Source: a virus (taxonomy: Duplodnaviria > Heunggongvirae > Uroviricota > Caudoviricetes). From it: a DNA stretch of 64,000 nt. Positions within the stretch are counted from its first letter, which is position 1. Each line of letters begins with the position of its first letter. Position numbers and translations under genes: made by a program. Positions 9,408 to 31,757 of the stretch are shown one piece after another. The notes under the pieces were generated by a model that ran no database searches, was not told the origin of the DNA, and worked only from the letters and a program-made list of their open reading frames with translations. The stretch lies in the IMG/VR virus record IMGVR_UViG_3300020581_000009, positions 22,611 to 86,610 of that record. One strand, 5' to 3'.

Positions 9408-9713
9408 CTACGCCGCATCCATCCACACATGGCCGTCGCCACGACACGCACCCTTGACCGACCACGACCGCGTAAACCAATTGTGCCAGTGGCCTAACTT
9501 CCGACGTACTGTCCCGTCAGAATACCGAACCACAAGAACCTGATAGGACTGTAGCCATACCCACCCAACATCATGTGTCAGAATCGGAATGACCGCGACA
9601 CGATACCTCAATCCAACTATCGTGCCAGGAACCTTGTGCATCATCGGCCGCGTCTCGGAGAATATCCGCTGCCGCCGCAAGCCACACACCCAGAACCATG
9701 GCACATGAGACAC
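9408..9713 (-). CDS. hypothetical protein
   Basis: ORF overlapping 9641-9994 in another frame; uncertain which is real. Confidence 0.2.
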   Translation of the reverse strand: MSHVPWFWVCGLRRQRIFSETRPMMHKVPGTIVGLRYRVAVIPILTHDVGWVWLQSYQVLVVRYSDGTVRRKLGHWHNWFTRSWSVKGACRGDGHVWMDAA

Positions 9714-9994
9714 GACCGAGGATCGTACTCAGTCTGCCGGGTACTGGCATCCGTCCTTAGCCTGTGATCTGAATCGTCGTCGCCCGAATCAACCCAGTAA
9801 TCGTCGCCAACGTAATCGCTTCTTAGTGTCCGGGTAGACCACCTCCACCCTGCACGGGCAATCCGCTCTAGTTCGCGGTCCCTCTCCGCTGCAACCTCGT
9901 CAGGATCGGTGTCCTCCCTAATCCTACGATCAGCCCTGCGGTCTATGTTGTCGCGACTCATGCTTATGCCCTCAATGAACACAAACCGTAACAC
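9641..9994 (-). CDS. hypothetical protein with DnaJ-like CxxCxGxG zinc-finger repeat
   Basis: CLMCHGSGCVACGGSG near C-terminus; acidic N-terminal region. Confidence 0.35.
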   Translation of the reverse strand: MLRFVFIEGISMSRDNIDRRADRRIREDTDPDEVAAERDRELERIARAGWRWSTRTLRSDYVGDDYWVDSGDDDSDHRLRTDASTRQTEYDPRSCLMCHGSGCVACGGSGYSPRRGR

Positions 9995-10310
9995 ACCATT
10001 GGTGAGGACGCAACCCGCAAAAAATCAGAAAATATTTTTTGGAAATCGGAGTAGTTCGTACAGCGTTCTAGCCCCGCAAGGGCTAATCCTCCATGCAAAT
10101 CACAAAACCTGCGCTAGAAGATACCCAGCCAAGATAAAAATAATGGCGAGCCCAATAGCCATCCGACCAGATAACGTAAGCGTGTAATGCGGGTACATCA
10201 TTGGTTCTCCAGAGTTTTTGGAAAAATATCATACATTAGGGAGGGGGCCACGAAGGCATCGGCTCGCCGGCCGCAGGGGGGGGGTGGCCTTCGATCTGTG
10301 CATACGTGCC

Positions 10311-10910
10311 CTAGCCCGTGCCGTCTGTGGCTGAGGTCTGGCGCATCGCGCGTAGCTCTGCCTCGGTCAGTCGGACGCCGCCTGCCTTGGTGCCGTCGAT
10401 GATGTCGAGCCTTGGTGCATCAGCGTCTGGTGTGCCGTTGAGCCTGCACACGTATGGCCTCCATGTGGTGTTGCGTATGTCTACCCATGTCTTGAGGCAT
10501 CTGTCACAGATCCAGGTGTACTCGGTCCCGTTCACTGGGTGGCGGAGGCATGGGCCGTTAGCCTGTCGGTCGGCTGTGGATGCGGTGGCGCGGCGGCGAG
10601 ACTCGACGACATCGAGCGCCACCCAAGCTAGGCCGATACACTCATCCATGGTCAGGCCATCGCTCGACACCTTGTGCATGGCGTTGGCGGCGATGTTCGC
10701 CTCTTCCTGCGTCGGGTGACGCACTGGCCGATGGCTTGCGGTCATGGCGTCCTCTAGCTCGGCTGACGTTATGATATTGTCCCGTACACGATTGCGCACA
10801 CTCTCGGCGGCGGCGAGTGCGGCAGCGGCCATGTCCCTCCATGGAAAGAACCTCTCGCGCGGATCCATCATGGCCTCGGTCGCTGCGTCTATCTCGGCTT
10901 GTGTCGGCAT
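10311..10910 (-). CDS. hypothetical protein
   Basis: 199-aa ORF. Confidence 0.45.
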   Translation of the reverse strand: MPTQAEIDAATEAMMDPRERFFPWRDMAAAALAAAESVRNRVRDNIITSAELEDAMTASHRPVRHPTQEEANIAANAMHKVSSDGLTMDECIGLAWVALDVVESRRRATASTADRQANGPCLRHPVNGTEYTWICDRCLKTWVDIRNTTWRPYVCRLNGTPDADAPRLDIIDGTKAGGVRLTEAELRAMRQTSATDGTG

Positions 10911-10950
10911 GGTTCTATCCTATCACGTAGTTGATGGATGGATGACGGCG

Positions 10951-11277
10951 CTACTTGGCACCCTTTAGGAGCGACCCAGGTGCAGCCATGTTGCGCCACG
11001 ACTCACGCGGCTTGGCGCGAGGTGGCGGCACGATTGGAGTATCCATCGGATCCGGTCGAGGTGAGGCGTAGAATGGCGGCAAGCCCAGCGACAAGAGTAA
11101 TGTTTCGCGCGTCTGGAGATCGGAGTCCTCCCATGCGGTCTGCAATGCCTGGGCTGTGCCAACCTTTCGCAACTCCGTCTTGGGCTTCGCCTTCTTGGCT
11201 CGGTGCGCCTTAGCTCGCTCGGCTCCAGTCATGGGCTTGTCGCCCTTCGGTTTGCGCGGCATTTTGTTACGATCCAT
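10951..11277 (-). CDS. hypothetical basic protein
   Basis: Lys/Arg-rich N-terminus; iteron-like repeat array directly upstream. Confidence 0.4.
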   Translation of the reverse strand: MDRNKMPRKPKGDKPMTGAERAKAHRAKKAKPKTELRKVGTAQALQTAWEDSDLQTRETLLLSLGLPPFYASPRPDPMDTPIVPPPRAKPRESWRNMAAPGSLLKGAK

Positions 11278-11340
11278 TCGTTACGTTACGGGTTTCGTTA
11301 CTCATATCGTTACTCATATCGTTACTGTGTGCTCGTAACG
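11262..11340. repeat. cluster of at least 6 CGTTAC direct repeats including a perfect 12-bp tandem TCATATCGTTAC x2
   Basis: tcgttacgttacgggtttcgttactcatatcgttactcatatcgttactgtgtgctcgtaacg; iteron/operator-like, in promoter region of 10951-11277. Confidence 0.6.
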
Positions 11341-11347
11341 CAATACG

Positions 11348-11890
11348 CTAGTTCAGCTTGTCTTTGTCCTTGTCACGTACAACACCGATCTGCAACGGCT
11401 GCGGCGATGTCAGCGAAGCCGGCGCGTCCACACCTAACGCCTGGAGATCCTTCAGGATTTCGTTACGTAGCTCGTCCGTGGTCATCGTTGCGGTGAGACT
11501 CCGCACGTCCGACTTGATCTCGCGTTTGTTGGTGAATACCTCGCCCATTTCCTTTGCAGCTTGCTCCATTAGCTCGGCGGCGAGCTTCACATTCTTGCGG
11601 CCGATGGCGATGACGCAGAGCTTATGCAACTCCTTCAGCCGATATGCCTTATTGGCTATCCCGATGGAATCGGTGCTCTCTAGGAACCGCTTGCGCTCGG
11701 CATGGAATAGCTCAAGCCACTGTTTTGCCGCACGAAAATTGACCGTATCAGGGTGATATCCATACAGTTGTTGAGTGCTCGCGTCGATCCCAAACTCTTC
11801 CTTTAATTCTCGCGCCGTCTCCGATACGGAAGCAAATCGGGCAAATGCACGTATAACGAAAGCTTTATGTTCTGCGGTGAGCCGGGCCAT
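11348..11890 (-). CDS. phage DNA-binding protein (DUF2280-like N-terminus; possible terminase small subunit family)
   Basis: MARLTAEHKAFVIRAFARFASVSETARELKEEFGID resembles DUF2280 N-terminal HTH; identity tentative. Confidence 0.35.
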   Translation of the reverse strand: MARLTAEHKAFVIRAFARFASVSETARELKEEFGIDASTQQLYGYHPDTVNFRAAKQWLELFHAERKRFLESTDSIGIANKAYRLKELHKLCVIAIGRKNVKLAAELMEQAAKEMGEVFTNKREIKSDVRSLTATMTTDELRNEILKDLQALGVDAPASLTSPQPLQIGVVRDKDKDKLN

Positions 11891-12178
11891 TTTTCATGAT
11901 TGTCGCGCGTTTGATACGAATGGCCCCATTTCCTAGCCGATTATCCCCGAAATGTCTACAGTGCGTATCTGCTTACTTTTCAACGGCCGGCAATGTGCAG
12001 ATTGTGTGTGCGACATATCTCGATTATATCCTGGTGGTGAGGTTTAGCGGATTGCGCCGGTACCGCTCCAATTCAGCCCATAGGCATTCAAATGATTCTG
12101 GCGTGAGGTCTGTTATCTTATGGTTGCTCCATGTCTGCATTAGAACCGATTGCATGGATTCGTCACCAAAATCAACGG

Positions 12179-12517
12179 TCACCGTCGCACCCGCTCAAAC
12201 TCATCCAGCCACTTCGCCGCGACCGTGGCAAGCGTCTTGTCGAGCGACTCAATCCCGTCTGCGATCCGCTTGATGTCGGCGGCAACCTGCGAATCAATCG
12301 TGTGCGTGGCAAGTCTGAGGTCGGTCGGCGCATCGGCTGTGTGCTTGGCAAACTCTGCCAGCTTCTCCGCGCGCATCCGCGTTGCCTCGGCCAGTAGCTT
12401 TGCGTCGGTGCCGTGGTCGAGGTGCTTTGATTCGGGGTGCTTTCGTGGATCGGTGGCCTTGGGTGCCTCAACTGTCTCGGCCGTAGTCGTATCAGGCATG
12501 GATTGATTCCCTGTCAT
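12179..12517 (-). CDS. hypothetical coiled-coil protein
   Basis: ORF; ATGA overlap with upstream ORF. Confidence 0.4.
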   Translation of the reverse strand: MTGNQSMPDTTTAETVEAPKATDPRKHPESKHLDHGTDAKLLAEATRMRAEKLAEFAKHTADAPTDLRLATHTIDSQVAADIKRIADGIESLDKTLATVAAKWLDEFERVRR

Positions 12518-12729
12518 GTGGTGGTCTGTGTCGAGGGGGGCGGCTGAATCTCGCGGTCGGCAAAGTCCCGTAGCGCCATGCTGGTGGAGATTAGCGTCTC
12601 GAATGCGGTGTCACTGTCTAGCGCGTCAAAGGCCGTCCTAGCGTCACGCCATGCCCTCACAAGCCGTTCTAATTCGTAGAGCCGATCCGACTCCTCAACG
12701 CTTATGAGCGGCATTGCAGCTAATCCCAT
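12514..12729 (-). CDS. hypothetical protein
   Basis: internal Met MGLAAMPL chosen; longer listed ORF probably over-extended. Confidence 0.3.
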   Translation of the reverse strand: MGLAAMPLISVEESDRLYELERLVRAWRDARTAFDALDSDTAFETLISTSMALRDFADREIQPPPSTQTTT

Positions 12730-13346
12730 TTCATCGGCGCATCTTGTAGCACGAGGGCAGAGCGGAGTCCAGTTGACTCGCCTAATTGCTGGCTGTAAAA
12801 AGAAATGGCCGGCTCGTGATGGTCTCACGGCCGGCCCGATCCGCAGCGGCTTTTGAAGAGGGTTGTCTGCGAACCACGATATCAAGATATAAACATTTAC
12901 TTATATCTAGATATGGTGTCAAGGTCGAAAAACCCTCAGCCCGGACTTTTTTTGTCCGATCGAGCCAAGCCATCCCCGCAGACCCGGTGCCGCGCGCCAG
13001 CGGTGCATAAGCGCGCGGGCCGTGGGGATAGCCCGAACAAAACAATTCCAGGCTCCGTCGCCCCCTGACGCCCTGGGCCTACAAACCGAGCACCCCTCGG
13101 GAACGGTTGTTGGCATGATGGCCCGCTAGTTGACGGCCATTATGGGCGGGAGCCGAAAAAGTCCCGCTGCACTAGTCCGGCTTGCCGGTAAAAGGCACTG
13201 AGTATGCGGGCACACAATTTGTGCCTCCCCCTCACTAGGGGCCATAGATGGTCTAACCACCATTTGTGGGCAGAAAAGGGGGAACTATGGCTATATATAG
13301 TAGGCCAAAGAAAAGTGGCACAATCTGCGACATTTCTCTTGCATCG

Positions 13347-13368
13347 TACCGTGCAATATGCTCTATGG
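13347..13368. promoter_or_regulatory. conserved promoter/operator-like motif CCGTGCAATATGCTCTATGG
   Basis: 14/14 identity CAATATGCTCTATG with 16244-16257, both followed by ACTGCGAG. Confidence 0.45.
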
Positions 13369-13401
13369 GAGAAGTTAGAACCAACTGCGAGGAATACAGC
13401 C

Positions 13402-13818
13402 ATGAAGCACGATAGCATTTACCACCTTGCCGCCGCTGGCATTAAAATCGAGGACGCGGTGGCGCTCCGCCGAATCTCCATGACCTTGCACCGCTGGCAC
13501 GAGTTGGAGTGCGGCGACGGCAATAACTACGGTTCATGGGCAATCGAGCGCGACGACGAATCCGAAAAGCCGTACATGGTTCACCACCACTACAGGCACG
13601 GCCAAGGCCAAGACTCGGTTTCGCGCACGGCCATCCCCGATCGGGAAATGGGCGCACGCAAGCGGCTCGGCAAAATCATGGCCGGCTATCCGGGCTTTGC
13701 TGCTTACGTCCAGACGGACCCGCGCGGGTGCGCGCTCTATGTTCTGCGTCCCGGCGACGTGCCGGCCGATGCCGCCATCGACTCTTGCTACAATCGCGGT
13801 ATTGCGGTGTACAAATGA
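13402..13818 (+). CDS. hypothetical protein
   Basis: ATG preceded by AACTGCGAGGAATACAGCC leader; upstream conserved promoter-like motif. Confidence 0.5.
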   Translation: MKHDSIYHLAAAGIKIEDAVALRRISMTLHRWHELECGDGNNYGSWAIERDDESEKPYMVHHHYRHGQGQDSVSRTAIPDREMGARKRLGKIMAGYPGFAAYVQTDPRGCALYVLRPGDVPADAAIDSCYNRGIAVYK

Positions 13819-14009
13819 GCGAGAATACGCTCCGATATTGGTGCGAACACGCTCTCGCTGCAGACCAAAAGACCATCGCAGAGCGCAAATGGTCCGCGCC
13901 GGTCAAAGCGCCCAAGCCGCAAAAGCCTTGCGACATTGGACTCTTTAGCGATGACGCGAATCAACTCGACTTGTGCGAAATGTTCCAACTGCCAACAAAT
14001 GAGGCGTGA
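13815..14009 (+). CDS. hypothetical small protein
   Basis: ATGA overlap. Confidence 0.4.
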   Translation: MSENTLRYWCEHALAADQKTIAERKWSAPVKAPKPQKPCDIGLFSDDANQLDLCEMFQLPTNEA

Positions 14010-14141
14010 TATGGCAAAGACTGTAGGCGGGTCATATAAAGGTGGAAGCTGCACCGAGGTTGATAGCATCGCTCGGACGTGCGACCGCGAAACCGCAATC
14101 CGCCGACTAGACTTCAACAACCAACCTGCGAGGATACGAAT

Positions 14142-14618
14142 ATGAATATCGAGCCAGTGTCACAAAACTACCTCTGCGGCGATTGTCCCGATTGCGGCAA
14201 TCCAATTCCAGAGTCGGCCGTTCACGGTGATGCGTGCGACAACTGCGGCCATGTATTCCTTCATGCCGATTGCATCTGCCTGGACGGGCATTTCGATGCC
14301 AAGTGTCCCGTTCACATGGCGGGCGGCAACGCGGCGATACCCCACCCGAACACGGACGAATGCACGGCGGCGTGCAATAACGCGGTGCCCGATATGGACC
14401 GGCCATATTGTGAGATTTGCGGCGAGTCACACGCCACATGGAAAATGGAGGATGTTGGCGTCTGTGATGATTGCTTTGCGGATGAGTGCCGCGAAGCTCT
14501 CTTCCCGGTGCTCGGCAAGCGCTGCTGCGCCGTCTACTGTCAGCCAGTCACAAAACAGCCCGCGATTTGCCTCGCTATGTACGGTCAAGAGCACACACAC
14601 GGCGAGGTCGTGCGATGA
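14142..14618 (+). CDS. cysteine-rich (multiple CxxC) putative zinc-binding protein
   Basis: about 20 Cys in 158 aa (CGDCPDCG, CDNCGH, CEICGESH, CDDCFADEC); CCTGCGAGGA leader before ATG. Confidence 0.5.
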   Translation: MNIEPVSQNYLCGDCPDCGNPIPESAVHGDACDNCGHVFLHADCICLDGHFDAKCPVHMAGGNAAIPHPNTDECTAACNNAVPDMDRPYCEICGESHATWKMEDVGVCDDCFADECREALFPVLGKRCCAVYCQPVTKQPAICLAMYGQEHTHGEVVR

Positions 14619-16198
14619 CGCGCTCACAGAAAATCGCCGCCGAGTTAACGCACTGTTTCAGGGCAAGGCATCCCCTCCTTTGGATAATTACGAGAGAGGA
14701 AGCCAGAGTCGAGCGCTACATTCACGAAGCTGCCGCAAATGCAGCCTACATTACCCGGTCATGGGACGTTGCCCAAGGCGTCACGGAGATCGGCGGTAAA
14801 CCCCCTGCCAGGGCGATAGGCTCCAAGGATCCCGGCGAAATGCTCGACGCCATCATGGCGCGGGCAATGACCGAAACCGGCCCGGAGCGCGCCGTCTGGA
14901 TCATGCGAGACTTGCCGGCGTGGCTAGTGGGTCCGTCCGGCATTGTAACGCTTCGCCAGCTTCGCAATCTGGCGAGGGCGCTACCTGGGAGGCCACGGGA
15001 TTCGGCGCAAGCGTTGGTCGTTATTAGCCCGTCTGGCGAGGTTCCGCCGGAACTGGCGTCTCATGCGACCGTCATCGAATGGCCATTGCCTGATCGGGAA
15101 GAGATTGCCGCCATACTTGATGCGGCTATCGGTGCTCTCCCCGAGGACATCAAGGCCAGTGCCGCCCCGAACGGGACGCGGGACGCTGCTATTGACGCGG
15201 CAATCGGATTGAGCGGCGAAGAGGCGGCGGCGTGCTATGCCAAGTCGCTCGTGCAGCTTAGGCGGATCGATGTCGCCACGGTGGCAAATGAGAAAAAGAG
15301 AGTTATCGCTCGCGAGCGCGTCCTCGAATGGGTGGAACCGATTGAAGCCGGAATGGACGCAGTTGGGGGGCTGGAAAACCTCAAACAATGGCTATTGGTG
15401 CGCGGCACAGCATACAGCGCCAAAGCACGCGCCTACGGACTTCCGTCCCCGCGCGGGATTCTCTTGGGTGGCATTTCTGGCTGTGGCAAATCATTGACTC
15501 CGAAGGCGCTTGCAAAGGCCTGGAAATGCCCGCTATTGCGCCTCGATATGGGCGCTCTAAAATCCAAATTTGTTGGCGAATCGGAAACCAATTTAAGGAA
15601 GGCGCTAAAGGTTGCCGAGGCCACGGGGAAATGTATATTGTGGATAGATGAAATTGAAAAAGCCTTGCAGGGAGCCACTTCCGGCGCATCTGATGGTGGC
15701 GTTTCGTCGGATGCTTTGGGCGCCTTGCTCTCGTGGATGCAAGAGCGCACAAGCGAGACATTTATCGTTGCTACGGCTAATGATGTCTCAATTTTGCCCC
15801 CCGAGCTTTTACGCCGCTTCGATAAAACTTGGTGGATCGACTTGCCAACTCTTGTCGAGCGGACTGACATTCTCGCGGCTGCGTTGCGCGTCCACAAGCG
15901 CGGCGATGTCCTCGAATACAGCGATTGGTCAAAGGTCGCCGCCGCTTGCCCAGGCTTCACGGGCGTAGAGGTTGCCGATCTTGTGCCGGCCGCACTATTC
16001 GCGGCATTCTCAGAGGATGGCAGGGAAATCGAGACTGCGGACCTTTTGGAAGCAATAAAGTTCGTTTCGCCTTTGAGTGTGACTGCCAAGGAGAAAATCG
16101 AGTCCCTCCGTCAATGGGGACGGACACGCGCTCAACCGGCCAGTGCCGTGGCTCAGGTCGAAACCGTCTCAATCGGTGGGCGGGCGCTAGATTTCTAG
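14615..16198 (+). CDS. AAA+ ATPase (classic AAA clade) with about 290-aa N-terminal domain of unknown function
   Basis: Walker A GGISGCGKS, Walker B ILWIDEIE, sensor-1 VATAN, SRH/arginine finger LLRRFD; ATGA overlap with upstream gene. Confidence 0.8.
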   Translation: MTRSQKIAAELTHCFRARHPLLWIITREEARVERYIHEAAANAAYITRSWDVAQGVTEIGGKPPARAIGSKDPGEMLDAIMARAMTETGPERAVWIMRDLPAWLVGPSGIVTLRQLRNLARALPGRPRDSAQALVVISPSGEVPPELASHATVIEWPLPDREEIAAILDAAIGALPEDIKASAAPNGTRDAAIDAAIGLSGEEAAACYAKSLVQLRRIDVATVANEKKRVIARERVLEWVEPIEAGMDAVGGLENLKQWLLVRGTAYSAKARAYGLPSPRGILLGGISGCGKSLTPKALAKAWKCPLLRLDMGALKSKFVGESETNLRKALKVAEATGKCILWIDEIEKALQGATSGASDGGVSSDALGALLSWMQERTSETFIVATANDVSILPPELLRRFDKTWWIDLPTLVERTDILAAALRVHKRGDVLEYSDWSKVAAACPGFTGVEVADLVPAALFAAFSEDGREIETADLLEAIKFVSPLSVTAKEKIESLRQWGRTRAQPASAVAQVETVSIGGRALDF

Positions 16199-16206
16199 CC
16201 CAAAGT

Positions 16207-16257
16207 GTCACGGAGTGTAACTTTCCGCTTGTGCGCTCCGTGACAATATGCTCTATG
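16207..16257. promoter_or_regulatory. palindrome GTCACGGAG-N20-CTCCGTGAC overlapping conserved motif CCGTGACAATATGCTCTATG
   Basis: 9-bp perfect inverted repeat; motif shared with 13347-13368. Confidence 0.45.
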
Positions 16258-16304
16258 TTACAGACTGCGAGTTGAACCCACAACGAATCAAATAGGAGAA
16301 TGTC

Positions 16305-17198
16305 ATGGTACTCGAAACGGCTACCCTGCGCCCAGGTTTGCTGGTGAGCCTTAAGACTTCGGTCACTGGCAATGTCTCGTACATCAAGCGCGACATCGAG
16401 ACAGACCACGTTACCGAGGACGGCCACCTTGCCGCCAAATGGGAAACGGAACGGACTATCGTTGATCCGGGCGAGCATGAGGCGGCGATTAAGGTCCGGT
16501 CGAAGGCTCGGGCTCTCGTGACCGGATCGTGCGTCGCCTCTGCTTTCGGTCTCTTGTGTCCCGAGTCGGGTGCCGGCAATCTCGAATTGGCGATTGCCGA
16601 GGCACGCAGGCTTACGGATGCGTTCAATGCCGAGGCACGGCTAACCCGCGTGTCGGTCTATGTCATTGCCGGCAGGGTCGCGGCGAACGATGGCGAGGCC
16701 ACCAAGGCGATCAACTCCGAGGTCCGCGATCTCTTGGAGGACATGAAGCAAGGTATCGCGAATCTTGACGTTGGTGTGATTCGCGCCGCAGCGAACAAGG
16801 CCCGCGCAATCGGTGCCATGCTTGCGCCGGATGCCTCTGAGCGCGTTAAGGTGGCGATTGAAGCTGCCCGGTCGGTAGCTCGCAAGATTGTCCAGGCCGG
16901 CGAGACTGCGGCGCAAGAGGTTGACCACCAAGCGATCCGGGTCATCGCAGAATCGAGGACGGCCTTTCTCGATTTGGATGAGCCGACGATCAGCGCGGAC
17001 GCGGCGGAAGTCCTGGCCGATGAGGCGCGGGCCGTTGACTTTGCGCCGGCAGATGACGACGCGGTTACGCAGGCCAAGTCCGATGAGGGCGGCGTTGACC
17101 TTGTGTTCGATGAATCGGAGGCAAGGACGCAGGCGGAAGCGGCTGCGAAAGCGGCTGATGCGGCGATGTCCACCGTCCCGCAATTCGAGATGGAATAG
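16305..17198 (+). CDS. hypothetical Ala-rich acidic protein
   Basis: 297-aa ORF. Confidence 0.5.
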   Translation: MVLETATLRPGLLVSLKTSVTGNVSYIKRDIETDHVTEDGHLAAKWETERTIVDPGEHEAAIKVRSKARALVTGSCVASAFGLLCPESGAGNLELAIAEARRLTDAFNAEARLTRVSVYVIAGRVAANDGEATKAINSEVRDLLEDMKQGIANLDVGVIRAAANKARAIGAMLAPDASERVKVAIEAARSVARKIVQAGETAAQEVDHQAIRVIAESRTAFLDLDEPTISADAAEVLADEARAVDFAPADDDAVTQAKSDEGGVDLVFDESEARTQAEAAAKAADAAMSTVPQFEME

Positions 17199-17202
17199 TG
17201 CC

Positions 17203-17541
17203 ATGCCCTGCGATTCCGCAACGCTGCAAGGCCAAACGCTCACAGAGCGCAAAATCGAGGTACGCGAGGCGGTAGAACGTCTCGCGAAGGCCCTCGCCAG
17301 CGGACGCGCTAGGGCCGTTGTGGGACCGCAAGGTGCCATCACGTTCACGGGCGCGGAGTTCTTGGGAGAATATCGCGTCACAGATAATTGTGCGTTCCGC
17401 CGCGTGATGGCAACGGGGTCGGCGTTGGCGCGGAATGCTATCGCCAAGGCCGAAATGATGGCCGGCCGGTCGGTGGATCGGAAGGTCGTCGCGGCTGGTG
17501 TCCATAGCCACGATGGCGTTACGTGGCACGGGAAGGGGTGA
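17203..17541 (+). CDS. hypothetical protein
   Basis: internal ATG just after previous stop. Confidence 0.4.
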   Translation: MPCDSATLQGQTLTERKIEVREAVERLAKALASGRARAVVGPQGAITFTGAEFLGEYRVTDNCAFRRVMATGSALARNAIAKAEMMAGRSVDRKVVAAGVHSHDGVTWHGKG

Positions 17542-17546
17542 CGGAC

Positions 17547-17738
17547 ATGAGAATAAGCCATCGCGAATATCAATCGCTTTCGCCGCGCGAGCAGCAAGAT
17601 TACATTAACTCGATAATCCGTCCCTTCAAGCGGCGTGAAATGATGATCGACCATATCGACGGCGATCCGCGCAACAATGACCCGGCCAATCTGCGTTTGG
17701 TTACGCTGACTGAATCATTTGGCACGAAGACTCGTTAG
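17547..17738 (+). CDS. HNH-like small protein (possibly truncated HNH nuclease)
   Basis: IDHIDGDPRNNDPANLRLVT HNH core motif, lacks distal His. Confidence 0.4.
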   Translation: MRISHREYQSLSPREQQDYINSIIRPFKRREMMIDHIDGDPRNNDPANLRLVTLTESFGTKTR

Positions 17739-17788
17739 TGACTAACTCAGCCGGCCGCGCAAATGCGGCCACAACATGCGAGGACAAC

Positions 17789-18079
17789 ATGACTGCGCAT
17801 ACAGATCCGCTCAAGCTCGAAAACCTGATTTCATGGCTAGAGACAATGCCGCCAGATGAGGAATACAGTTTTTCCAGCCGGGATAACTGTCTCCTGGCAC
17901 AATTCCTCAAGTCATGCGGATGTGAAGAGATATGGGTCGGCGGGTTCACCTTTGATTACGATGACAACAAAGGCGTGCGGATACCCGCCACCCATAGCGA
18001 CATCGCAAGCGAAGGTGAGTACACATTCGGGGCCGCTACGCTGCGGGCTCGTGAGGCTTTCGCTGGCGCCGCGCCCTAA
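17789..18079 (+). CDS. hypothetical protein
   Basis: ATG preceded by CATGCGAGGACAAC leader. Confidence 0.45.
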   Translation: MTAHTDPLKLENLISWLETMPPDEEYSFSSRDNCLLAQFLKSCGCEEIWVGGFTFDYDDNKGVRIPATHSDIASEGEYTFGAATLRAREAFAGAAP

Positions 18080-18363
18080 GCAGCGAGCTTCACCGCACAA
18101 GTACCGCACGCCTGAGAGATAGCCAGCCGGCCGATCTCAGGCGTGCGCGTTCCTGCTTCCACCATAGCGGCGACACGCGGGTCAAACGCACCATACCGAC
18201 GCACAATGGATACAAACTCCGTGACATCGTGGCCTTTCAGGGCGTATTGTGGCGATCCGTCTTTGAGATATTTCGGCTCGCCGTCGCTGTCCAGTGCCAC
18301 GGAACAATGCAAAAGCTCGACTGCCACATTTAACCTGCGAGGACACCATGAACCGGAAAGCAA
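18076..18363 (-). CDS. hypothetical protein (antisense to operon; uncertain)
   Basis: only ORF covering 18080-18347 gap. Confidence 0.2.
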   Translation of the reverse strand: MLSGSWCPRRLNVAVELLHCSVALDSDGEPKYLKDGSPQYALKGHDVTEFVSIVRRYGAFDPRVAAMVEAGTRTPEIGRLAISQACGTCAVKLAA

Positions 18364-18587
18364 CCTACGCCGACGACCGCAAGAAGCGCGTGATCTCCGT
18401 CCACAATGGCCGGTGGGTGGCGCAGAAATTCACCGCCGGCCCGCGCGACGGGAAGGGCTCTAACCGCGTCAGAGGCAACAAGAACGCCCAGGATCACGTT
18501 GATCCGTGGGAGAACATCGCGCCCGTGACCGACGACCGTGCTCGGGCGCTGGCGTCCATCAGTGACAACACGCAGGCGAGGGTGTGA
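18348..18587 (+). CDS. hypothetical protein
   Basis: ATG preceded by CCTGCGAGGACACC leader. Confidence 0.45.
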   Translation: MNRKATYADDRKKRVISVHNGRWVAQKFTAGPRDGKGSNRVRGNKNAQDHVDPWENIAPVTDDRARALASISDNTQARV

Positions 18588-18877
18588 TGATAGACTTCAC
18601 AAGACCCGGACGGATGATTTCGGGATCCAAGACGTGCCCAAAAGGACATGTATGCGTATTCAACGCGAACATCTGTTCAAAATCGCGTGGCAAGTTTTGG
18701 TTTGGCGACATTGACATTACGGCCGATGCCGCCGATCTAAGGGCACTTGCAGCCAAGGAAGGTGAGGAAATCTATATCCTTCGCGAGATGGACGGGCGCT
18801 TCACAAACGAAGAAAAACCTCTACTCCACAAGTCGGTGGCTCGCGTTCACCCTGACGGAACGATAACGATTGGTTAG
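18584..18877 (+). CDS. hypothetical protein
   Basis: ATGA overlap. Confidence 0.45.
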   Translation: MMIDFTRPGRMISGSKTCPKGHVCVFNANICSKSRGKFWFGDIDITADAADLRALAAKEGEEIYILREMDGRFTNEEKPLLHKSVARVHPDGTITIG

Positions 18878-18921
18878 CATCTGGTGCTCCGTGTCCTCGC
18901 AGGCGTAGAGCACCGATGGTC

Positions 18922-18967
18922 GGGCCGGGCAAACGTGGGGAAAGCGTAGCCCGGCCCTTTCCGTTTG
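18922..18967 (+). terminator. putative rho-independent terminator
   Basis: GGGCCGGGC-N18-GCCCGGCCC stem followed by TTTCCGTTTG. Confidence 0.4.
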
Positions 18968-19068
18968 ATTCGCCATAAAGTGCTTGACGGCAGACAATAA
19001 ATAGCGCAATACCTCCCAAACGGGAGGCTATCGTGATTCCTGTGGATAACTACTCGGTCGTGGCCTAA

Positions 19069-20577
19069 GTGCCGGCCCTCTCCATCGACCATGAAATGGC
19101 CCTATACGAGGCTGCGGCGGTCGAAAACGCCCTCTTTGACGGGTATCCGCCCCCCGGCGATCTGGTCATAGGAACCCATGACAAGGGCGCTATGCGGGTC
19201 GCCGCTGTCCGTGTGGGTGTGAATGAACAGTCCCTCAGACGCAGAATCGGCACTCCAGAGGCTCCGGGTGCGATAGAGAAGCGATTCGGTATCTCCGTCG
19301 ATTGGAGCATGTACCGGCCGAAACTCCCTGTAGATGAGACTGAGGAGCTAGAGGCCACGGTCGAGCTATACAAGCGCGAGGGGAGTATTTTTAAGGCTGC
19401 GCTCGCCGCCGGCACCAGCAAAGACACCATACGGATGCGGATCCACAAGGCCGCCGAACGCGGCATGTTGGGGACTGAGCCTGTACTGCCTGGGTTTCGA
19501 ATCAAAGAGGCATCCCGGCAGATCGGACCTGACGGCGAGCTACAAAAGGAATGGATACGGCAGGCCAAGGAGCATGGTGAACCATTCACGTTGCCGGATG
19601 GTCATATCATAAAAGGCATCTCCGCGCTCACAGACGAAGACGGCCGACTCATTCAGCAGTGGGTGAAGACGAAGACTGATACGGTAACGGCTGATTTGGT
19701 CGCGGCGCTCAAGGAGACATTCAAGGAGTACAGCGGCAAGGCTCCGTTGATTCGCGCGCCAAGGAATAGCGACGAATCACTTCTCAGCGTTTATCCCATA
19801 GCAGACCAACATATCGGACTCTTGGCCTGGGGCAAGGAGACCGGGGACGGCGATTACGACCTGAAGATTGGTGTCGAGCGACTCCGCTCATGTGCGACTC
19901 GTCTTGTCAGTCAAAGCCCTCCAAGCAAGCACGCAATCATATTGAACCTTGGGGATTTCCAGCATACAGACGATTCGAAGAATATGACACCCGGTCATGG
20001 AAACATTCTGGACGTGGATAGTCGGTATTTCAAGCTACTCCAAGCCGGCGTTCAGCTAATGATGGACGTAATAGAACTCGCGTTGCAAAAACACGACACA
20101 GTGCTTGTTAGGAACATTCCAGGCAACCACGATCCACACGCTTCAATCGCTTTAACCGTAGCTCTTGGTGCATTCTATTCGAGACACCTCCGAGTCGTCA
20201 TTGACGACGACCCCGGAGATTTCTTTTTCCATCGTTTCGGTGCAACTTTGATTGGAGCTACACACGGACACAAGTGCAAACCTGATAAGATGGCTATGGC
20301 TATGGCCGTTCGGTGTCGAGAGGACTGGGGCGCGACTAAGTACCATTATTTTATGCACGGCCACTTTCACCACGAGGCGACTAAAGAGGTTGGAGACGTG
20401 CGCGTGGAGGGATTCCAGACACTCGCAGCCAATGACGCCTATTCAGCCTCACATGGGTACAGTTCCGGCAAGTCTCTAAACAGCATTACGATCCACTTCG
20501 ATGACGGAGAGATAGGACGGCACCGAATCAACTTTCCTCCCTCTCTGCGTAAAGCTACAAAATTTGAGGGCGCATAA
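19069..20577 (+). CDS. calcineurin-like metallophosphoesterase with N-terminal extension
   Basis: LNLGDFQH, IPGNHD, GATHGH motifs; GTG start preceded by an 11-codon upstream ORF with GGGAGG RBS. Confidence 0.7.
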   Translation: MPALSIDHEMALYEAAAVENALFDGYPPPGDLVIGTHDKGAMRVAAVRVGVNEQSLRRRIGTPEAPGAIEKRFGISVDWSMYRPKLPVDETEELEATVELYKREGSIFKAALAAGTSKDTIRMRIHKAAERGMLGTEPVLPGFRIKEASRQIGPDGELQKEWIRQAKEHGEPFTLPDGHIIKGISALTDEDGRLIQQWVKTKTDTVTADLVAALKETFKEYSGKAPLIRAPRNSDESLLSVYPIADQHIGLLAWGKETGDGDYDLKIGVERLRSCATRLVSQSPPSKHAIILNLGDFQHTDDSKNMTPGHGNILDVDSRYFKLLQAGVQLMMDVIELALQKHDTVLVRNIPGNHDPHASIALTVALGAFYSRHLRVVIDDDPGDFFFHRFGATLIGATHGHKCKPDKMAMAMAVRCREDWGATKYHYFMHGHFHHEATKEVGDVRVEGFQTLAANDAYSASHGYSSGKSLNSITIHFDDGEIGRHRINFPPSLRKATKFEGA

Positions 20578-20925
20578 ATGAAATTACTATTCGTTGGCGA
20601 ATCGCGGTCACCAACCGCAAAAAGAATGGGCGTCACATGGAAAGATGGCCGCCTTGCTGCTAAGCCATTATTCGAGGCATTAGAGTTTATTGGCATAGAC
20701 CCAGCGCAACATAAGTTTGTGAACTGGTTTGAAGGTGGAAAGCAGGCGGTACGAAGTTTTCGCGATGGTTCGATTGTGGCGATGGGAAAGAAAGTACAGA
20801 GAGCGCTTGATGCCGAAGGTATCCAATACATTGGGATTGTCCATCCTGCTGCTCGTGGAAAAATTAGAAAGAGAGAGACCTATATCTCACACGTTTACGC
20901 TGCTTTGAGCGAGTTGAAACTTTGA
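20578..20925 (+). CDS. hypothetical protein
   Basis: ATGA-type overlap. Confidence 0.45.
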   Translation: MKLLFVGESRSPTAKRMGVTWKDGRLAAKPLFEALEFIGIDPAQHKFVNWFEGGKQAVRSFRDGSIVAMGKKVQRALDAEGIQYIGIVHPAARGKIRKRETYISHVYAALSELKL

Positions 20926-21350
20926 CGACCGTTACATTCAGGGCCGGGGTGCTCGCGAGCGACTCCAACTGCTCGGCTGGCGGCTTGCGCGTCTATCGCG
21001 TACGGAAGATATTCCGCCTAGAGGATGGGTCGCTCGCGGGTTTCGCCGGGGATTTGGCCGAGGGCATGAAAATGATAGACTGGCTGGATGACGGCGCCGA
21101 GCCTGAATCGCGCCCAGGAATTCAGAACGTTCACGGCCTTGTGGTGAGACCTAGCGGGAGAATCACGCTATACGAGGGCGGCGTGCCGATTAACCCGAGA
21201 GCGCCGAAGTACATAGCGATCGGCACCGGCCAGGGCGTGGCGATGGGGGCGATGTTCAGCGGGGCGAGCGCGATTGAGGCAGTGCGGGCGGCGATAGAGC
21301 ACGATGATTGCTCGCGAGGCCCGGTGATCTCGATGAGGTTGAAACGATGA
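20922..21350 (+). CDS. HslV/proteasome beta-like Ntn-hydrolase peptidase
   Basis: N-terminal MTTV (Thr1 nucleophile position), FAGDLAEGMKMIDWL and IAIGTGQGVAMGA resemble HslV FAGGTADAF... and IAIGSGG... Confidence 0.55.
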   Translation: MTTVTFRAGVLASDSNCSAGGLRVYRVRKIFRLEDGSLAGFAGDLAEGMKMIDWLDDGAEPESRPGIQNVHGLVVRPSGRITLYEGGVPINPRAPKYIAIGTGQGVAMGAMFSGASAIEAVRAAIEHDDCSRGPVISMRLKR

Positions 21351-21565
21351 CATGGGAAGAATTTAAGGATTCCGTTGAAAAATACCTAGCTGAAAAATGC
21401 ATCAATGGTTCAATTAAGGTGGATTATATTAAAATTGAACCAAACCGTGATCTAAATTTCTATCAAGCGTGAGATTGCAAAAGGAGGACACGGCGTCAAC
21501 AGAGCGCTCGCTAAAAAACATGGCGTAACTGATGCATTGATTTCATCTATAAAGCATGGGAGGGC

Positions 21566-21943
21566 ATGGACATGCGTATCTATCTAGCCGGTGCGATGAG
21601 AAATATCCCCTTTTTCAATTTTCCTGCCTTTCACGCGGCAGCAGCGAAGTTGCGCGCCGAGGGGCACGAAGTATTCAGCCCAGCCGAGCGCGATATAGAA
21701 CGTCATGGCGGAGTTGATATATCTGCCGGAAACGTAACCGGCGACGAACGAGAGTCCGCTGAGAAACATGGTTTCGATCTTCGGGTGGCATTGGGAGAAG
21801 ATTTGGCGTGGATCTGCGCCCATGCAGAGGCCATAGCTCTCCTGCCGGGATGGACGAGAAGTCGAGGAGCTACTGCCGAACATGCGACGGCGCTAGCTCT
21901 TGGGTTGAAGGTAATTCAGTTGGAGTTTAGCGAGCATGACTGA
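21566..21943 (+). CDS. DUF4406 (nucleoside 2-deoxyribosyltransferase-like) protein
   Basis: IYLAGAM...AEGHEVFSP...LLPGW.RSRGA pattern. Confidence 0.5.
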   Translation: MDMRIYLAGAMRNIPFFNFPAFHAAAAKLRAEGHEVFSPAERDIERHGGVDISAGNVTGDERESAEKHGFDLRVALGEDLAWICAHAEAIALLPGWTRSRGATAEHATALALGLKVIQLEFSEHD

Positions 21944-23504: not shown

Positions 23505-23613
23505 TAAATGCCACTAAATATGGTATACGTCAAGGCCTTGGCATGGAGGGTAGTGGTACAGTTTGAAAATCAAGCCACTCGCGCCCTAGGCCGATCGGTG
23601 GCATAATTCCACG

Positions 23614-31630: not shown

Positions 31631-31757
31631 GAATCAAACAGCCGACCGGTGCTGCGAGACACCGGCCGGCTTGGAAAGCCAATCGAGTTTACCTGCGCCG
31701 GCTTGTTCCGTAGCCGTGACCGTATTGGAACAGCAGGATTGCCCGAAAGGCTACTCT

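What the first reader, a model, noticed from the sequence alone, without database searches (positions are those of the whole stretch)
13380..18350. Conserved TGCGAGGA translation-initiation leader on four genes of one block
Start codons at 13402, 14142, 17789 and 18348 are each preceded at -8 to -19 by (C)CTGCGAGGA(A/T/C)AC. The specific leaders are aactgcgaggaatacagccATG, acctgcgaggatacgaatATG, acatgcgaggacaacATG and acctgcgaggacaccATG, and three are also preceded by CCACA. An extended, shared Shine-Dalgarno context on non-adjacent genes suggests a common post-transcriptional control (translational repressor or RNA-binding protein site) or recent modular acquisition of these genes.
Basis: seen in the sequence. 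Interest (0 to 1): 0.6.

Follow-up and report, generated by a model that had tools for sequence, protein, structure and literature searches.

The report
Shared start-site leader on phage early genes
Four early genes of an uncultured 110-kb phage share a conserved leader (core TGCGAGGA) just before their start codons; relatives keep it in front of different genes, like the unexplained "start-associated sequences" of mycobacteriophages, and it is complementary to a conserved hairpin loop at the end of the same gene block.

Summary
TGCGAGGA lies 4-8 nt before the ATGs at 13402, 14142, 17789 and 18348. These are 4 of the window's 7 copies, and it is among the two most start-enriched 8-mers.

Relatives show selection on the core:
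- L051, L002, L065 and L066 keep TGCGAGG(A) while the flanks and even the downstream gene differ.
- A 27-nt island is identical between the window and L051, with unrelated sequence on both sides.
- In L067 the same gene abuts an upstream ORF and uses a plain GGAGG instead.

Only GAGG can pair with a canonical anti-Shine-Dalgarno tail, so the conserved TGC is not explained by ribosome pairing. More distant relatives carry their own repeated leaders in the same block (CAACCGATGGAG, CAAGGAGACC).

I classify it as a new member of the start-associated-sequence kind: a portable initiation module for genes that cannot be translationally coupled, sitting at mosaic junctions.

New lead: GTGTCCTCGCAGG at 18891-18903 is the exact complement of one leader. 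It sits in hairpin H1 just before an intrinsic terminator. L065 and L067 keep H1 with covarying stems and an invariant CUCGCA loop. RNA-RNA control is plausible but unproven.

The parts
13379..13401 (+). Leader W1: AACCAAC-TGCGAGGA-ATACAGCC. Core at 13386-13393, 8 nt before ATG 13402. It lies about 12 nt downstream of the predicted start of transcription from promoter P1.
   Evidence: In L051 the stretch CAATATGCTCTATGGGAGAAGTTAGAACCAACTGCGAGGA is 40/40 identical, but a different gene follows.
14118..14141 (+). Leader W2: CAACCAACC-TGCGAGGA-TACGAAT. Core at 14127-14134, 7 nt before ATG 14142.
   Evidence: The 27-nt island 14118-14144 is 100% identical in L051, where it is fused directly to the AAA ATPase gene. 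It is 93.5% identical over 31 nt in L002. Flanks are unrelated in both.
17771..17788 (+). Leader W3: ACAACA-TGCGAGGA-CAAC. Core at 17777-17784, 4 nt before ATG 17789.
   Evidence: L051 has CACAACATGCGAGGA before an unrelated 57-aa gene.
17753..17770 (+). Hairpin GGCCGC-GCAAAT-GCGGCC directly upstream of leader W3.
   Evidence: Small hairpins can also be read in the sequences just upstream of the matching leaders in L051 and L065.
18331..18347 (+). Leader W4: TAACC-TGCGAGGA-CACC. Core at 18336-18343, 4 nt before ATG 18348. It fills the 20-nt gap to the divergent metallopeptidase gene (GTG at 18327, minus strand).
   Evidence: Orthologous leaders in L066 (aaaaccaTGCGAGGAaacaccATG) and L065 (catacaTGCGAGGAggatagaATG) keep the 8-mer while the flanks differ. 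L067 has GGAGG instead.
13402..13818 (+). Gene behind W1 (138 aa, no family match).
14142..14618 (+). Gene behind W2 (158 aa, Cys-rich). Its stop overlaps the start of the AAA ATPase gene 14615-16198.
17789..18079 (+). Gene behind W3 (96 aa).
18348..18587 (+). Gene behind W4 (79 aa). Orthologues were found in L065, L066, L067 and L068.
13338..13366 (+). Promoter-like P1: CTTGCA-N17-CTCTAT. It drives the block that begins with W1.
   Evidence: Conserved in L002 and L051.
16228..16256 (+). Promoter-like P2: CTTGTG-N17-CTCTAT. It is the second exact copy of CAATATGCTCTAT. The gene behind it (16305) uses AGGAGA, not the leader.
18883..18914 (+). Hairpin H1: GGUGCUC-CG-UGUC-[CUCGCA]-GGCG-UA-GAGCACC. 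Positions 18891-18903 (GTGTCCTCGCAGG) are the perfect reverse complement of W4 (CCTGCGAGGACAC). The apical loop is complementary to the UGCGAG of all four leaders.
   Evidence: L067 and L065 keep it with compensatory stem changes and an invariant loop.
18922..18970 (+). Intrinsic terminator: GGGCCGGGC...GCCCGGCCC followed by UUUCCGUUUGAUU. It ends the transcription unit that carries W4 and H1.
   Evidence: Conserved in L065.
31640..31671 (-). Hairpin H2: a 13-bp stem with the same CUCGCA apical loop, followed by GUUUGAUUCG. It lies in the tRNA region. It is a second carrier of the anti-leader loop.

Best explanation
The four sites are copies of a lineage-specific start-associated leader with consensus AAC-(C/A)-TGCGAGGA-yAC, placed 4-8 nt before ATG. 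It is the same kind of element as the SAS of Cluster K mycobacteriophages.

How it most likely works:
- It acts in the mRNA as a self-contained ribosome-loading module.
- It serves cistrons of the early, non-structural block whose translation cannot be coupled to an upstream ORF. These are the first gene after promoter P1, genes after untranslated gaps of 50 nt or more, and a gene after an antisense gene.
- GAGG supplies a modest Shine-Dalgarno contact, and the CA-rich stretch upstream keeps the site unstructured.
- The invariant bases that cannot pair with 16S rRNA (U-G-C before GAGG, A after it) most likely make the four cistrons a common target of one trans-acting partner.
- The only concrete candidate partner is the invariant CUCGCA loop of hairpin H1 at the 3' end of the unit. 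Pairing with it would occlude the SD.
- Because the module is short and repeated, it also marks the points at which genes are swapped between related phages.

Status of each step:
- Shown: position, enrichment, conservation beyond the SD, and use with different genes.
- Inferred: action at the RNA level, and co-regulation.
- Speculative: H1 as the partner (about 0.2-0.25).
For: 1. Position and enrichment. Four of 7 copies lie 4-8 nt before an ATG, all on one strand and within 5 kb.
2. Conservation beyond the SD. TGCGAGG is invariant in 10 aligned instances. A canonical anti-SD tail pairs only with GAGG (-5.9 kcal/mol, against -8.6 for the AGGAGA site at 16305). Other genes of the same genome use ordinary GGAG/AGGAG sites, so the host anti-SD is ordinary.
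3. Orthologous sites. The 79-aa gene keeps TGCGAGGA in the window, L066 (89% aa) and L065 (71% aa), while flanks and spacer length differ.
4. Context rule. In L067/L068 the same gene abuts an upstream ORF and has GGAGG instead. In the window, overlapping or abutting genes lack the leader.
5. Portability. The same leader types precede at least 7 gene families across the window, L051, L002, L065 and L066. The 27-nt island 14118-14144 is identical in L051, flanked by unrelated DNA, where coding DNA is about 83% identical.
6. Family trait. ATPase-block relatives have their own repeated leaders: L056 CAACCGATGGAG (4 exact copies plus a variant), L003 CAAGGAGACC on 11 genes, L055 ACCAAGGAG-type on 3 genes.
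7. No shared RNA fold, no Rfam family, and frame-independent placement.
8. Candidate partner. A 13-nt perfect complement sits in H1. Predicted duplexes are -20 to -29 kcal/mol, ranking 1, 2, 5 and 9 among 108 gene leaders. H1 has covarying stems and an invariant loop in L065 and L067.
Against: - There are only four copies in 64 kb, and the within-window statistic is borderline after multiple-test correction.
- There are no expression data, and the host is unknown.
- Identity among paralogous leaders could come from copying or gene conversion rather than from a binding partner.
- Lineage-specific leaders in relatives fit concerted evolution as well as they fit co-evolution with a factor.
- The L067 orthologue does without the leader, so it is not essential to that gene.
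- A near-identical 22-mer precedes a prohead protease gene in an unrelated phage (L010/L013). The sequence may simply be a good RBS in some host.
- For H1, complementarity that is conserved across phages is only 7 nt. Both partners are invariant, so there is no covariation between them.
- L003 and L056 carry CUCGCA-loop hairpins but no complementary leader.
Confidence: 0.6

Rival explanations
1. It is an ordinary good ribosome-binding site with no dedicated partner. One successful RBS was copied to several slots by recombination or gene conversion and persists by descent. The TGC prefix is a passenger, or is favoured only because it keeps the site unstructured.
For: - All sites sit where an SD should be, with variable spacing of 4-8 nt.
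- The leaders are weakly structured.
- Each related lineage has a different repeated leader, as concerted evolution would give.
- The same 22-mer occurs before a protease gene in an unrelated phage.
- L067 replaces it with GGAGG without losing the gene.
Against: - The 8-mer stays 8/8 in orthologous sites at 71-89% protein identity, while the adjacent bases and the spacer length differ.
- Its SD pairing is weaker than that of other sites in the same genome, so it is not the best available RBS.
- Passenger bases should drift between L065, L066 and the window, and they do not.
Confidence: 0.28
2. It is an RNA-RNA control pair. The invariant CUCGCA apical loop of H1, and of H2, pairs with UGCGAG(G) in the leaders and blocks 30S binding. 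It could act in cis as a 5'-3' fold-back of the W4 unit. It could also act in trans, as a stable 3' fragment (H1 plus terminator) that accumulates and shuts off the leader-bearing cistrons.
For: - A 13/13 complement of W4 lies at 18891-18903. It is the only such copy in the window, and the chance of one is about 0.004 for four 13-mers in 64 kb.
- It sits in the apical part of a hairpin immediately before an intrinsic terminator.
- Predicted duplexes are -20 to -29 kcal/mol.
- H1 is kept in L065 and L067. Four of 11 stem pairs change on both sides with pairing kept, and the loop is invariant.
- In L065, leader and H1 bracket the same unit.
- The loop begins CUCG, which fits the YUNR U-turn motif of antisense-RNA loops (from memory).
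Against: - Conserved complementarity is only 7 nt.
- There is no leader/loop covariation, because both are invariant.
- In L065 the flanks of leader and loop did not co-vary.
- L067 keeps H1 although its 79-aa gene lacks the leader.
- CUCGCA(A)-loop hairpins occur 9 times in L003 and once in L056 without complementary leaders. The loop therefore has some function of its own.
- The 13-mer could also come from an inverted duplication, since it is identical to the 5' untranslated sequence of the antisense metallopeptidase gene.
Confidence: 0.22
3. It is the binding or cleavage site of a protein acting on the mRNA. That could be a translational repressor of the T4 RegA type, or an SD-directed endoribonuclease of the T4 RegB type, which would switch off this set of early cistrons together.
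For: - There is sequence-specific conservation around the SD on a subset of early genes.
- The phage encodes RNA-binding proteins: a cold-shock-domain protein (5066-5377, minus strand) and a Ro60/TROVE protein (26221-27801, minus strand).
Against: - No RegA or RegB homologue turned up in the Pfam/PHROG scans I ran or in the precomputed Pfam annotation of about 4.6-25.6 kb, but the rest of the window was not scanned.
- Cold-shock domains and Ro60 are not known to read such a motif.
- Nothing links either gene to the leaders.
Confidence: 0.12
4. It is a DNA-level site: an asymmetric operator of the stoperator type, or another protein site read in duplex DNA. The inverted copy in H1 would be the same site in the other orientation.
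For: - TGCGAGG and CCTCGCA are one duplex site in two orientations.
- Cluster A stoperators are also short, asymmetric, intergenic and oriented (PMC3203893, PMC4351075).
Against: - The sites are tied to start codons (4-8 nt), not to promoters. Only W1 has a promoter nearby.
- None occurs before a leftward gene.
- The inverted copy sits in a hairpin whose stems covary, which points to selection on RNA.
- The promoters carry a different operator-like motif, GTGTCRCGGAGTGTA.
Confidence: 0.07
5. It is a chance resemblance among four GAGGA-type Shine-Dalgarno sites.
For: The total copy number in the window (7 against about 3 expected) is not itself significant.
Against: - Placement before starts has p of about 2e-6.
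- The core is conserved in five other contigs before different genes.
Confidence: 0.02

Closest known systems
Start-associated sequences (SAS) of Cluster K mycobacteriophages (GGGATAGGAGCCC; Pope et al. 2011, PMC3203893)
   Same: - Short asymmetric repeat in the RBS position, a few nt before mostly ATG starts, in one orientation.
- Found in the non-structural part of the genome.
- Precedes genes that follow upstream gaps of more than 50 bp.
- Contains an SD core, with conserved flanks that cannot pair with 16S rRNA.
- Conserved across relatives in front of different gene families.
- A stray inverted copy is not linked to a start.
- Function still unknown (PMC11373665, PMC12699233).
   Different: - Unrelated sequence.
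- 8-nt invariant core rather than 13 bp.
- Only 4 copies seen in 64 kb, against 11-19 per genome.
- Different phage group and a non-actinobacterial GC content.
- No 17-bp ESAS inverted repeats were found.
- Here a complementary, structurally conserved hairpin loop exists; I did not find such a partner mentioned for SAS in the papers read.
SAS-like repeats in Microbacterium Cluster EF phages (GGGAAAGGACCCC, PMC7302621) and in the FelixO1-like Citrobacter phage Mordin (26-bp CCAACAATCCTAAACTGGAGAATCTA, PMC4611695)
   Same: - They show that the phenomenon recurs in unrelated phages with lineage-specific sequences.
- The Mordin repeat also has a CA-rich stretch (CCAACAA) followed by an SD, upstream of 8 hypothetical genes in one genome arm.
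   Different: - Different sequences and hosts.
- Neither has been analysed for conservation at mosaic junctions or for a complementary partner.
Stoperators of Cluster A mycobacteriophages (as described in PMC3203893 and PMC4351075)
   Same: Short, asymmetric, multi-copy sites, mostly intergenic and oriented with transcription.
   Different: - Stoperators are DNA sites for the repressor and are not tied to start codons.
- The present sites are fixed 4-8 nt before ATGs, and no repressor link is evident.
T4 RegB and RegA control of early mRNAs (from memory)
   Same: A subset of early cistrons is controlled through a sequence at or around the SD.
   Different: - RegB cuts GGAG and RegA binds near the AUG.
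- No homologue of either was found in the parts of the window scanned here, and the motif differs.
Fold-back inhibition in hok mRNA (3' fbi element pairing with the 5' tac element) and 3'-UTR-derived sRNAs (from memory)
   Same: A 3'-terminal element next to a terminator is complementary to the 5' translation-initiation region of the same transcript or of a regulon.
   Different: - This is only an analogy for the H1 hypothesis.
- No processing, accumulation or pairing has been shown here.
Short conserved sequences at phage mosaic junctions (for example the 17-bp direct repeat flanking Corndog gene 14, PMC4351075; PeSL elements of T4-like phages, from memory)
   Same: Short repeated regulatory sequences coincide with points of gene insertion, deletion or replacement.
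   Different: Here the repeat is the RBS itself, and the junctions fall at or just after the ATG.

Membership tests
SAS-type start-associated sequence (kind defined by Pope et al. 2011) | Short asymmetric sequence repeated several times in one genome. | tested here: met
   There are four start-linked copies of TGCGAGGA with consensus AAC(C/A)TGCGAGGAyAC. This is fewer than the 11-19 copies of Cluster K. Only 64 kb of a 110-kb contig could be read.
SAS-type start-associated sequence (kind defined by Pope et al. 2011) | Located a few bp (3-9) upstream of the start codon, with ATG strongly preferred. | tested here: met
   Gaps are 8, 7, 4 and 4 nt, and 4/4 starts are ATG. All 7 instances in relatives are also followed by ATG.
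SAS-type start-associated sequence (kind defined by Pope et al. 2011) | One orientation, co-directional with the gene. Rare inverted copies are not start-linked. | tested here: met
   All four are on the + strand before + strand genes. The inverted intergenic copy at 18894-18901 precedes no gene; only a 19-codon ORF follows it, as read from the sequences.
SAS-type start-associated sequence (kind defined by Pope et al. 2011) | Confined to the non-structural part of the genome. | tested here: met
   The block holds an AAA ATPase, an HNH nuclease and small unknown genes. The only packaging or structural gene recognised is the large terminase at 1677-3374.
SAS-type start-associated sequence (kind defined by Pope et al. 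2011) | Associated with genes separated from the upstream gene by more than about 50 bp. | tested here: met
   The upstream untranslated gaps are over 800, 132, 50 and 268 nt on the same strand. Overlapping or abutting genes in the block lack the leader. The L067 orthologue that abuts an upstream ORF uses GGAGG. Caveat: L066 has a called upstream ORF overlapping the leader.
SAS-type start-associated sequence (kind defined by Pope et al. 2011) | Contains an SD core, but conserved positions extend beyond what can pair with 16S rRNA. | tested here: met
   Only GAGG pairs with a canonical tail (-5.9 kcal/mol). TGC and the trailing A are conserved. The host rRNA itself is unknown. Use of a canonical anti-SD is inferred from the GGAG/AGGAG sites of other genes.
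SAS-type start-associated sequence (kind defined by Pope et al. 2011) | Conserved among related genomes and found before genes of different families. | tested here: met
   Found in the window, L051, L002, L065 and L066, before at least 7 gene families.
Cluster K SAS sequence family proper | Matches GGGATAGGAGCCC with at most 2 mismatches. | tested here: not met
   The leaders read AACCTGCGAGGAYAC, which bears no resemblance to that consensus. This is the same kind of element, not the same sequence family.
Cluster K extended SAS (ESAS) | An imperfect 17-bp inverted repeat, with a promoter, immediately upstream of a subset of SAS. | tested here: inconclusive
   W1 has a conserved promoter (13338-13366) and an operator-like motif upstream. 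W3 has a small hairpin. No shared 17-bp inverted repeat was found.
Stoperator-type DNA operator | Bound by the phage repressor, spread over intergenic regions of both transcription directions, and not tied to start codons. | tested here: not met
   The sites occur only in the rightward block and always 4-8 nt before an ATG. None precedes a leftward gene. Binding could not be tested.
CsrA/RsmA binding site | A GGA in the loop of a short hairpin, in an A(N)GGA context (from memory). | tested here: not met
   The leaders have no shared hairpin. The context is GAGGA, not ANGGA (read from the sequence).
Antisense or 3'-UTR sRNA / target pair | Complementarity between an accessible loop or seed and the target RBS, conserved or co-varying across relatives, with the RNA expressed. 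| tested here: inconclusive
   Complementarity is 13 nt in the window and 7 nt conserved in L065. The H1 structure covaries and its loop is invariant. There is no covariation between partners, and expression cannot be tested.

The most novel reading that the evidence does not exclude
The leader core UGCGAGG and the invariant CUCGCA apical loop of the terminator-proximal hairpins (H1, H2) form a dedicated RNA-RNA pair. In effect the operon encodes an anti-Shine-Dalgarno mimic that folds back on, or accumulates and then silences, the SAS-bearing cistrons. This would be the first mechanism proposed for start-associated sequences. It would also explain why their conserved bases go beyond the SD.
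Probability: 0.2. Interest if true: 0.8.

Novelty: new member of a known kind. Interest (0 to 1): 0.5.

Why it matters
Start-associated sequences have been known since 2011 and are still unexplained (PMC11373665, PMC12699233). This case shows the same syndrome in an unrelated, uncultured phage lineage.

It adds two things that make the question testable:
- A clear context rule. The leader is present when the gene follows an untranslated gap, and it is replaced by a plain GGAGG when the gene abuts an upstream ORF.
- A concrete candidate partner: a conserved hairpin loop complementary to the core.

It also shows that relatives sharing the ATPase block each carry their own repeated leader. Such leaders may therefore be a general feature of early operons in this phage family, and may act as landmarks of gene exchange.

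Practically, two public gene calls in this block probably start too far upstream.

Tried and rejected
- DNA similarity to 50,697 phage records: none.
- ATPase relatives in IMG/VR: none.
- A 15-nt motif scan of IMG/VR: 47 single hits. All but L010/L013 are chance hits with no start codon at the right distance. L013 shares no proteins with the window.
- Promoter-plus-leader pattern in GTDB genomes: 3 hits, all inside helicase-like coding sequence, so chance.
- H1-plus-terminator pattern in IMG/VR: none.
- Relatives of the 502-aa exonuclease in IMG/VR (44-48% identity): no leaders and no H1.
- Homologues of the 96-aa gene 18587-18877 sit in unrelated phages without the motif. They gave no comparative information.
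- Shared RNA fold of the leaders: none, with z-scores from -0.6 to +0.8.
- Rfam: nothing in 12.4-19.2 kb at E of 1 or less. Nothing meaningful in L002, L003, L051 or L056.
- An anti-leader for the L003, L056 and L055 leaders: none found.
- A crude genome-wide hairpin census to calibrate the loop coincidence found about 1,500 weak hairpins and missed H1 itself. I do not use it.
- A fifth site, CTGCGAGT at 16265 (about +1 of P2), is not conserved in L002. I treat it as chance.
- The 41837 (-) copy looked like a hairpin loop but lies inside ORF 41340-42194.
- Sigma-54 and CsrA readings were considered from the sequence and dropped, because spacing and context do not fit.

Full report
**What is there.** TGCGAGGA occurs on the + strand at 13386, 14127, 17777 and 18336. 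The ATGs at 13402, 14142, 17789 and 18348 follow after 8, 7, 4 and 4 nt. The window has 7 copies against about 3 expected, which alone is unremarkable. Four of the 7 lie within 25 nt upstream of predicted starts, giving a binomial p of about 2e-6. TGCGAGGA and the overlapping CTGCGAGG are the two most start-enriched 8-mers. Two further copies are inside or antisense to coding sequence (2552 +; 41837 - within ORF 41340-42194). The seventh copy is inverted and intergenic, and is treated below. The similarity extends to a CA-rich stretch upstream (ACCAAC or CACAAC) and yAC downstream. Sites 2 and 4 share 24 of 31 nt. CCACA precedes only two sites, not three.

**Context.**
- The window is part of a 110-kb metagenomic phage contig. 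An ENA contig is 100% identical over window 7856-26198.
- No phage in GenBank resembles it at the DNA level.
- The block holds an AAA ATPase (14615-16198; phrog_8638; 46% identical to Corndog-type Cluster O mycobacteriophage ATPases), phrog_11021, phrog_11784, a small HNH protein and unknown genes.
- The large terminase is at 1677-3374, so the block is non-structural.
- Two exact copies of CAATATGCTCTAT lie within promoter-like sequences: CTTGCA-N17-CTCTAT at 13338-13366 and CTTGTG-N17-CTCTAT at 16228-16256.
- The first promoter lies about 20 nt upstream of leader W1. Sites 2-4 have no such promoter, so they are internal ribosome-loading sites of polycistronic RNA.
- Every leader-bearing gene follows an untranslated gap on its strand: over 800, 132, 50 and 268 nt. 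Genes whose starts overlap or abut the preceding stop lack the leader.
- Public gene calls start two of the genes further upstream, at 13204 and 17738. The 13204 extension contains the conserved promoter. In L051 the same leader types lie in plainly intergenic DNA, so the ATGs after the leaders are the likely starts.

**Not just a Shine-Dalgarno sequence.**
- Only GAGG can pair with a canonical anti-SD tail. The predicted duplex is -5.9 kcal/mol, against -8.6 for the AGGAGA site at 16305.
- Other genes in the window use ordinary GGAG/AGGAG sites, so the host anti-SD is presumably ordinary.
- The motif sits in different reading frames relative to the ATG at different sites, so coding does not explain it.
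- The leaders share no secondary structure (z-scores -0.6 to +0.8) and match no Rfam family.

**Relatives.**

*L051* (4 kb; about 83% nt identity in the ATPase N-terminus) has three leaders:
- The promoter plus W1-type leader is 40/40 identical but is followed by a different gene.
- CACAACATGCGAGGA (W3 type) precedes a 57-aa gene that is absent from the window.
- CAACCAACCTGCGAGGATACGAATATG is 27/27 identical to 14118-14144 but is fused directly to the ATPase. Unrelated sequence lies on both sides relative to the window.

*L002* (ATPase 76% identical) has the W2-type leader before a gene with a different N-terminus. It also has a W1-type variant, CTGCGAGGGAGAATACAGATG, before the 57-aa gene.

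*Orthologues of the 79-aa gene behind W4*:
- L066 (89% aa) reads aaaaccaTGCGAGGAaacaccATG, and its homology to the window begins at the leader.
- L065 (71% aa) reads catacaTGCGAGGAggatagaATG.
- In L067 and L068 (81% aa) the gene abuts an upstream ORF and the site reads GGAGGtctgacATG.

So the 8-mer is kept while neighbouring bases and spacer length change. It is dropped exactly when de novo ribosome loading is no longer needed. In an alignment of 10 instances, TGCGAGG is invariant. At least seven gene families are served.

**More distant relatives have their own repeated leaders** in the same ATPase block (ATPase 66-68% identical):
- L056: CAACCGATGGAG, four exact copies plus a close variant, on five genes.
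- L055: ACCAAGGAG-type on three genes.
- L003: CAAGGAGACC-N4-ATG on eleven genes. There it forms the 3' end of an intergenic repeat of about 100 nt with three hairpins.

A CA-rich prefix is common to all of them. Repeated lineage-specific leaders are thus a trait of this phage family.

**Comparison with known elements.** These properties match, point for point, the start-associated sequences of Cluster K mycobacteriophages:
- 3-7 bp before mostly ATG starts, in one orientation, in the non-structural half of the genome.
- Before genes with upstream gaps of more than 50 bp.
- An SD core with conserved flanks that cannot pair with 16S rRNA.
- Conserved before different gene families (PMC3203893).

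Their role is still called unknown in 2024-2025 (PMC11373665, PMC12699233). SAS-like repeats were also noted in Microbacterium Cluster EF phages (PMC7302621) and in the FelixO1-like phage Mordin, whose 26-bp repeat likewise starts CCAACAA and contains GGAGAA (PMC4611695). The sequence here is unrelated to GGGATAGGAGCCC. It is therefore a new member of the kind, not of the Cluster K sequence family.

**A complementary hairpin.**
- GTGTCCTCGCAGG at 18891-18903 is the perfect reverse complement of W4 (CCTGCGAGGACAC). It is the only such copy in the window. The chance of one for four 13-mers is about 0.004.
- It lies in hairpin H1 (18883-18914: GGUGCUC-CG-UGUC-[CUCGCA]-GGCG-UA-GAGCACC), right after the stop of gene 18587-18877.
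- An intrinsic terminator follows directly (18922-18957, then UUUCCGUUUGAUU).
- Predicted duplexes with W2, W4, W3 and W1 are -29, -28, -23 and -20 kcal/mol. They rank 1, 2, 5 and 9 among 108 gene leaders, although this follows largely from the complementarity itself.
- H1 is conserved at the same place in L067 and L065, although the gene before it differs. The outer stem reads GGUGCUC/GAGCACC, GCUGCUC/GAGCGGC and GCCGCUC/GAGUGGC. The inner stem reads UGUC/GGCG against GGGC/GCCU. Four of 11 pairs change on both sides with pairing kept, and the CUCGCA loop is invariant.
- In L065 the unit is leader, 79-aa gene, a different second gene, H1, terminator.
- A second hairpin with the same loop and a 13-bp stem lies on the minus strand at 31640-31671.

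*Cautions:*
- Complementarity that is conserved across phages is only 7 nt, and the flanks did not co-vary in L065.
- L067 keeps H1 without the leader on its 79-aa gene.
- CUCGCA(A) loops on varied stems occur nine times in L003 and once in L056, with no complementary leader there. The loop must therefore have some role of its own.
- The 13-mer is also identical to the 5' untranslated sequence of the antisense metallopeptidase gene, so an inverted duplication is possible.

**Verdict.**
- The element is a start-associated leader under selection beyond SD pairing. It is used for genes that need independent ribosome loading, and it sits at mosaic junctions (confidence about 0.6 for this package, and higher for the descriptive part).
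- Whether the extra bases serve a partner is open. The H1 loop is the best lead (about 0.2). A plain copied RBS is the main rival (about 0.28). A protein factor (about 0.12) and a DNA-level site (about 0.07) are less likely.
- Interest is moderate. The kind is known, but this case supplies a context rule and a testable partner for a phenomenon that has lacked a mechanism for 15 years.

Noticed in passing
window 26221-27801 (-) and 27891-27953 (-): The phage encodes a Ro60/TROVE protein (TROVE plus Ro60 vWA domains, E 9e-66). Just upstream of it on the same strand is a sub-threshold match to the Y RNA-like family YrlA (30.7 bits against a gathering score of 69; E 7e-4). This looks like a phage Ro60/Y-RNA module next to the tRNA array.
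   Followed up: partly
window 28250-36011 (-): There is an array of 28 tRNA genes on the minus strand, interspersed with a few small ORFs.
   Followed up: no
L003 9894-16689: An intergenic repeat of about 100 nt precedes most genes of the ATPase block. It has three hairpins: a 13-bp CUGCGCAUCCGG...CCGGGUGCGCAG, a 7-bp GGAGCGC...GCGUUCC, and a variable-stem hairpin with an invariant CUCGCAA loop. CAAGGAGACC-N4-ATG follows. No Rfam match.
   Followed up: partly
L056 8890-11630: Five genes of the ATPase block share the leader CAACCGATGGAG(A/C), four of them exactly. At 12725 a 5-bp hairpin with a CUCGCA loop abuts the SD of the next gene.
   Followed up: partly
window 16205-16219, 13315-13330; L002 and L051 upstream of their promoters: An operator-like motif, GTGTCRCGGAGTGTA, with variants such as GTGGCACAATCTGCGA, recurs just upstream of or overlapping the -35 of the repeated promoters. 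At P2 a 9-bp inverted repeat, GTCACGGAG...CTCCGTGAC (16207-16215 and 16236-16244), brackets the -35.
   Followed up: no
window 18105-18147: A perfect 13-bp inverted repeat (CGCACGCCTGAGA, 17 nt, TCTCAGGCGTGCG) lies 26 nt after the stop of gene 17789-18079. It is inside the coding sequence of the antisense metallopeptidase gene 18076-18327. It may terminate rightward transcription ahead of W4.
   Followed up: no
window 10911-10930 (-), 34250-34268 (-), 786-805 (-); 49200-49213, 51481-51494, 6260-6273 (+): There are other small families of near-identical start contexts. TGATAGGATA(G/C)(A/G)ACC-ATG precedes two minus-strand genes 23 kb apart, with a weaker third copy. GGAGAATAG(C/A)-ATG precedes three plus-strand genes. 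Start-associated repeats may be more general in this genome.
   Followed up: partly
L013 8174-8195 (-), L010 970-991: AACCTGCGAGGACACGAAAATG matches L002's W2-type leader at 21 of 22 positions. It precedes a gene just downstream of a 418-aa ORF in an IMG/VR phage that shares no proteins with the window. From their positions I take these to be the prohead protease and portal genes, but I did not check this.
   Followed up: partly
window 14012-14145 (+): A possible 44-codon ORF fills the gap before gene 14142. It has a GAGG 7 nt before its ATG. Its TGA overlaps the ATG at 14142, and leader W2 would lie inside it. It is not conserved in L002 or L051, where the upstream sequence is different.
   Followed up: no
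window 18587-18877 (+): This 96-aa gene is promiscuous. Homologues at 75-89% identity sit in otherwise unrelated phage contigs (L057-L064). In relatives of the window the slot between the 79-aa gene and H1 holds a different gene each time.
   Followed up: yes
L051 about 590-650 (minus-strand reading): The AAA ATPase homologue of L051 loses similarity to the window after about 128 codons, and a different gene follows. This is either a real rearrangement or an assembly chimera.
   Followed up: no
window 24612-25454 (+): A 280-aa gene has weak HTH_7 and faint IS1-type DDE transposase hits in the precomputed annotation. It may be an insertion-sequence remnant inside the phage.
   Followed up: no
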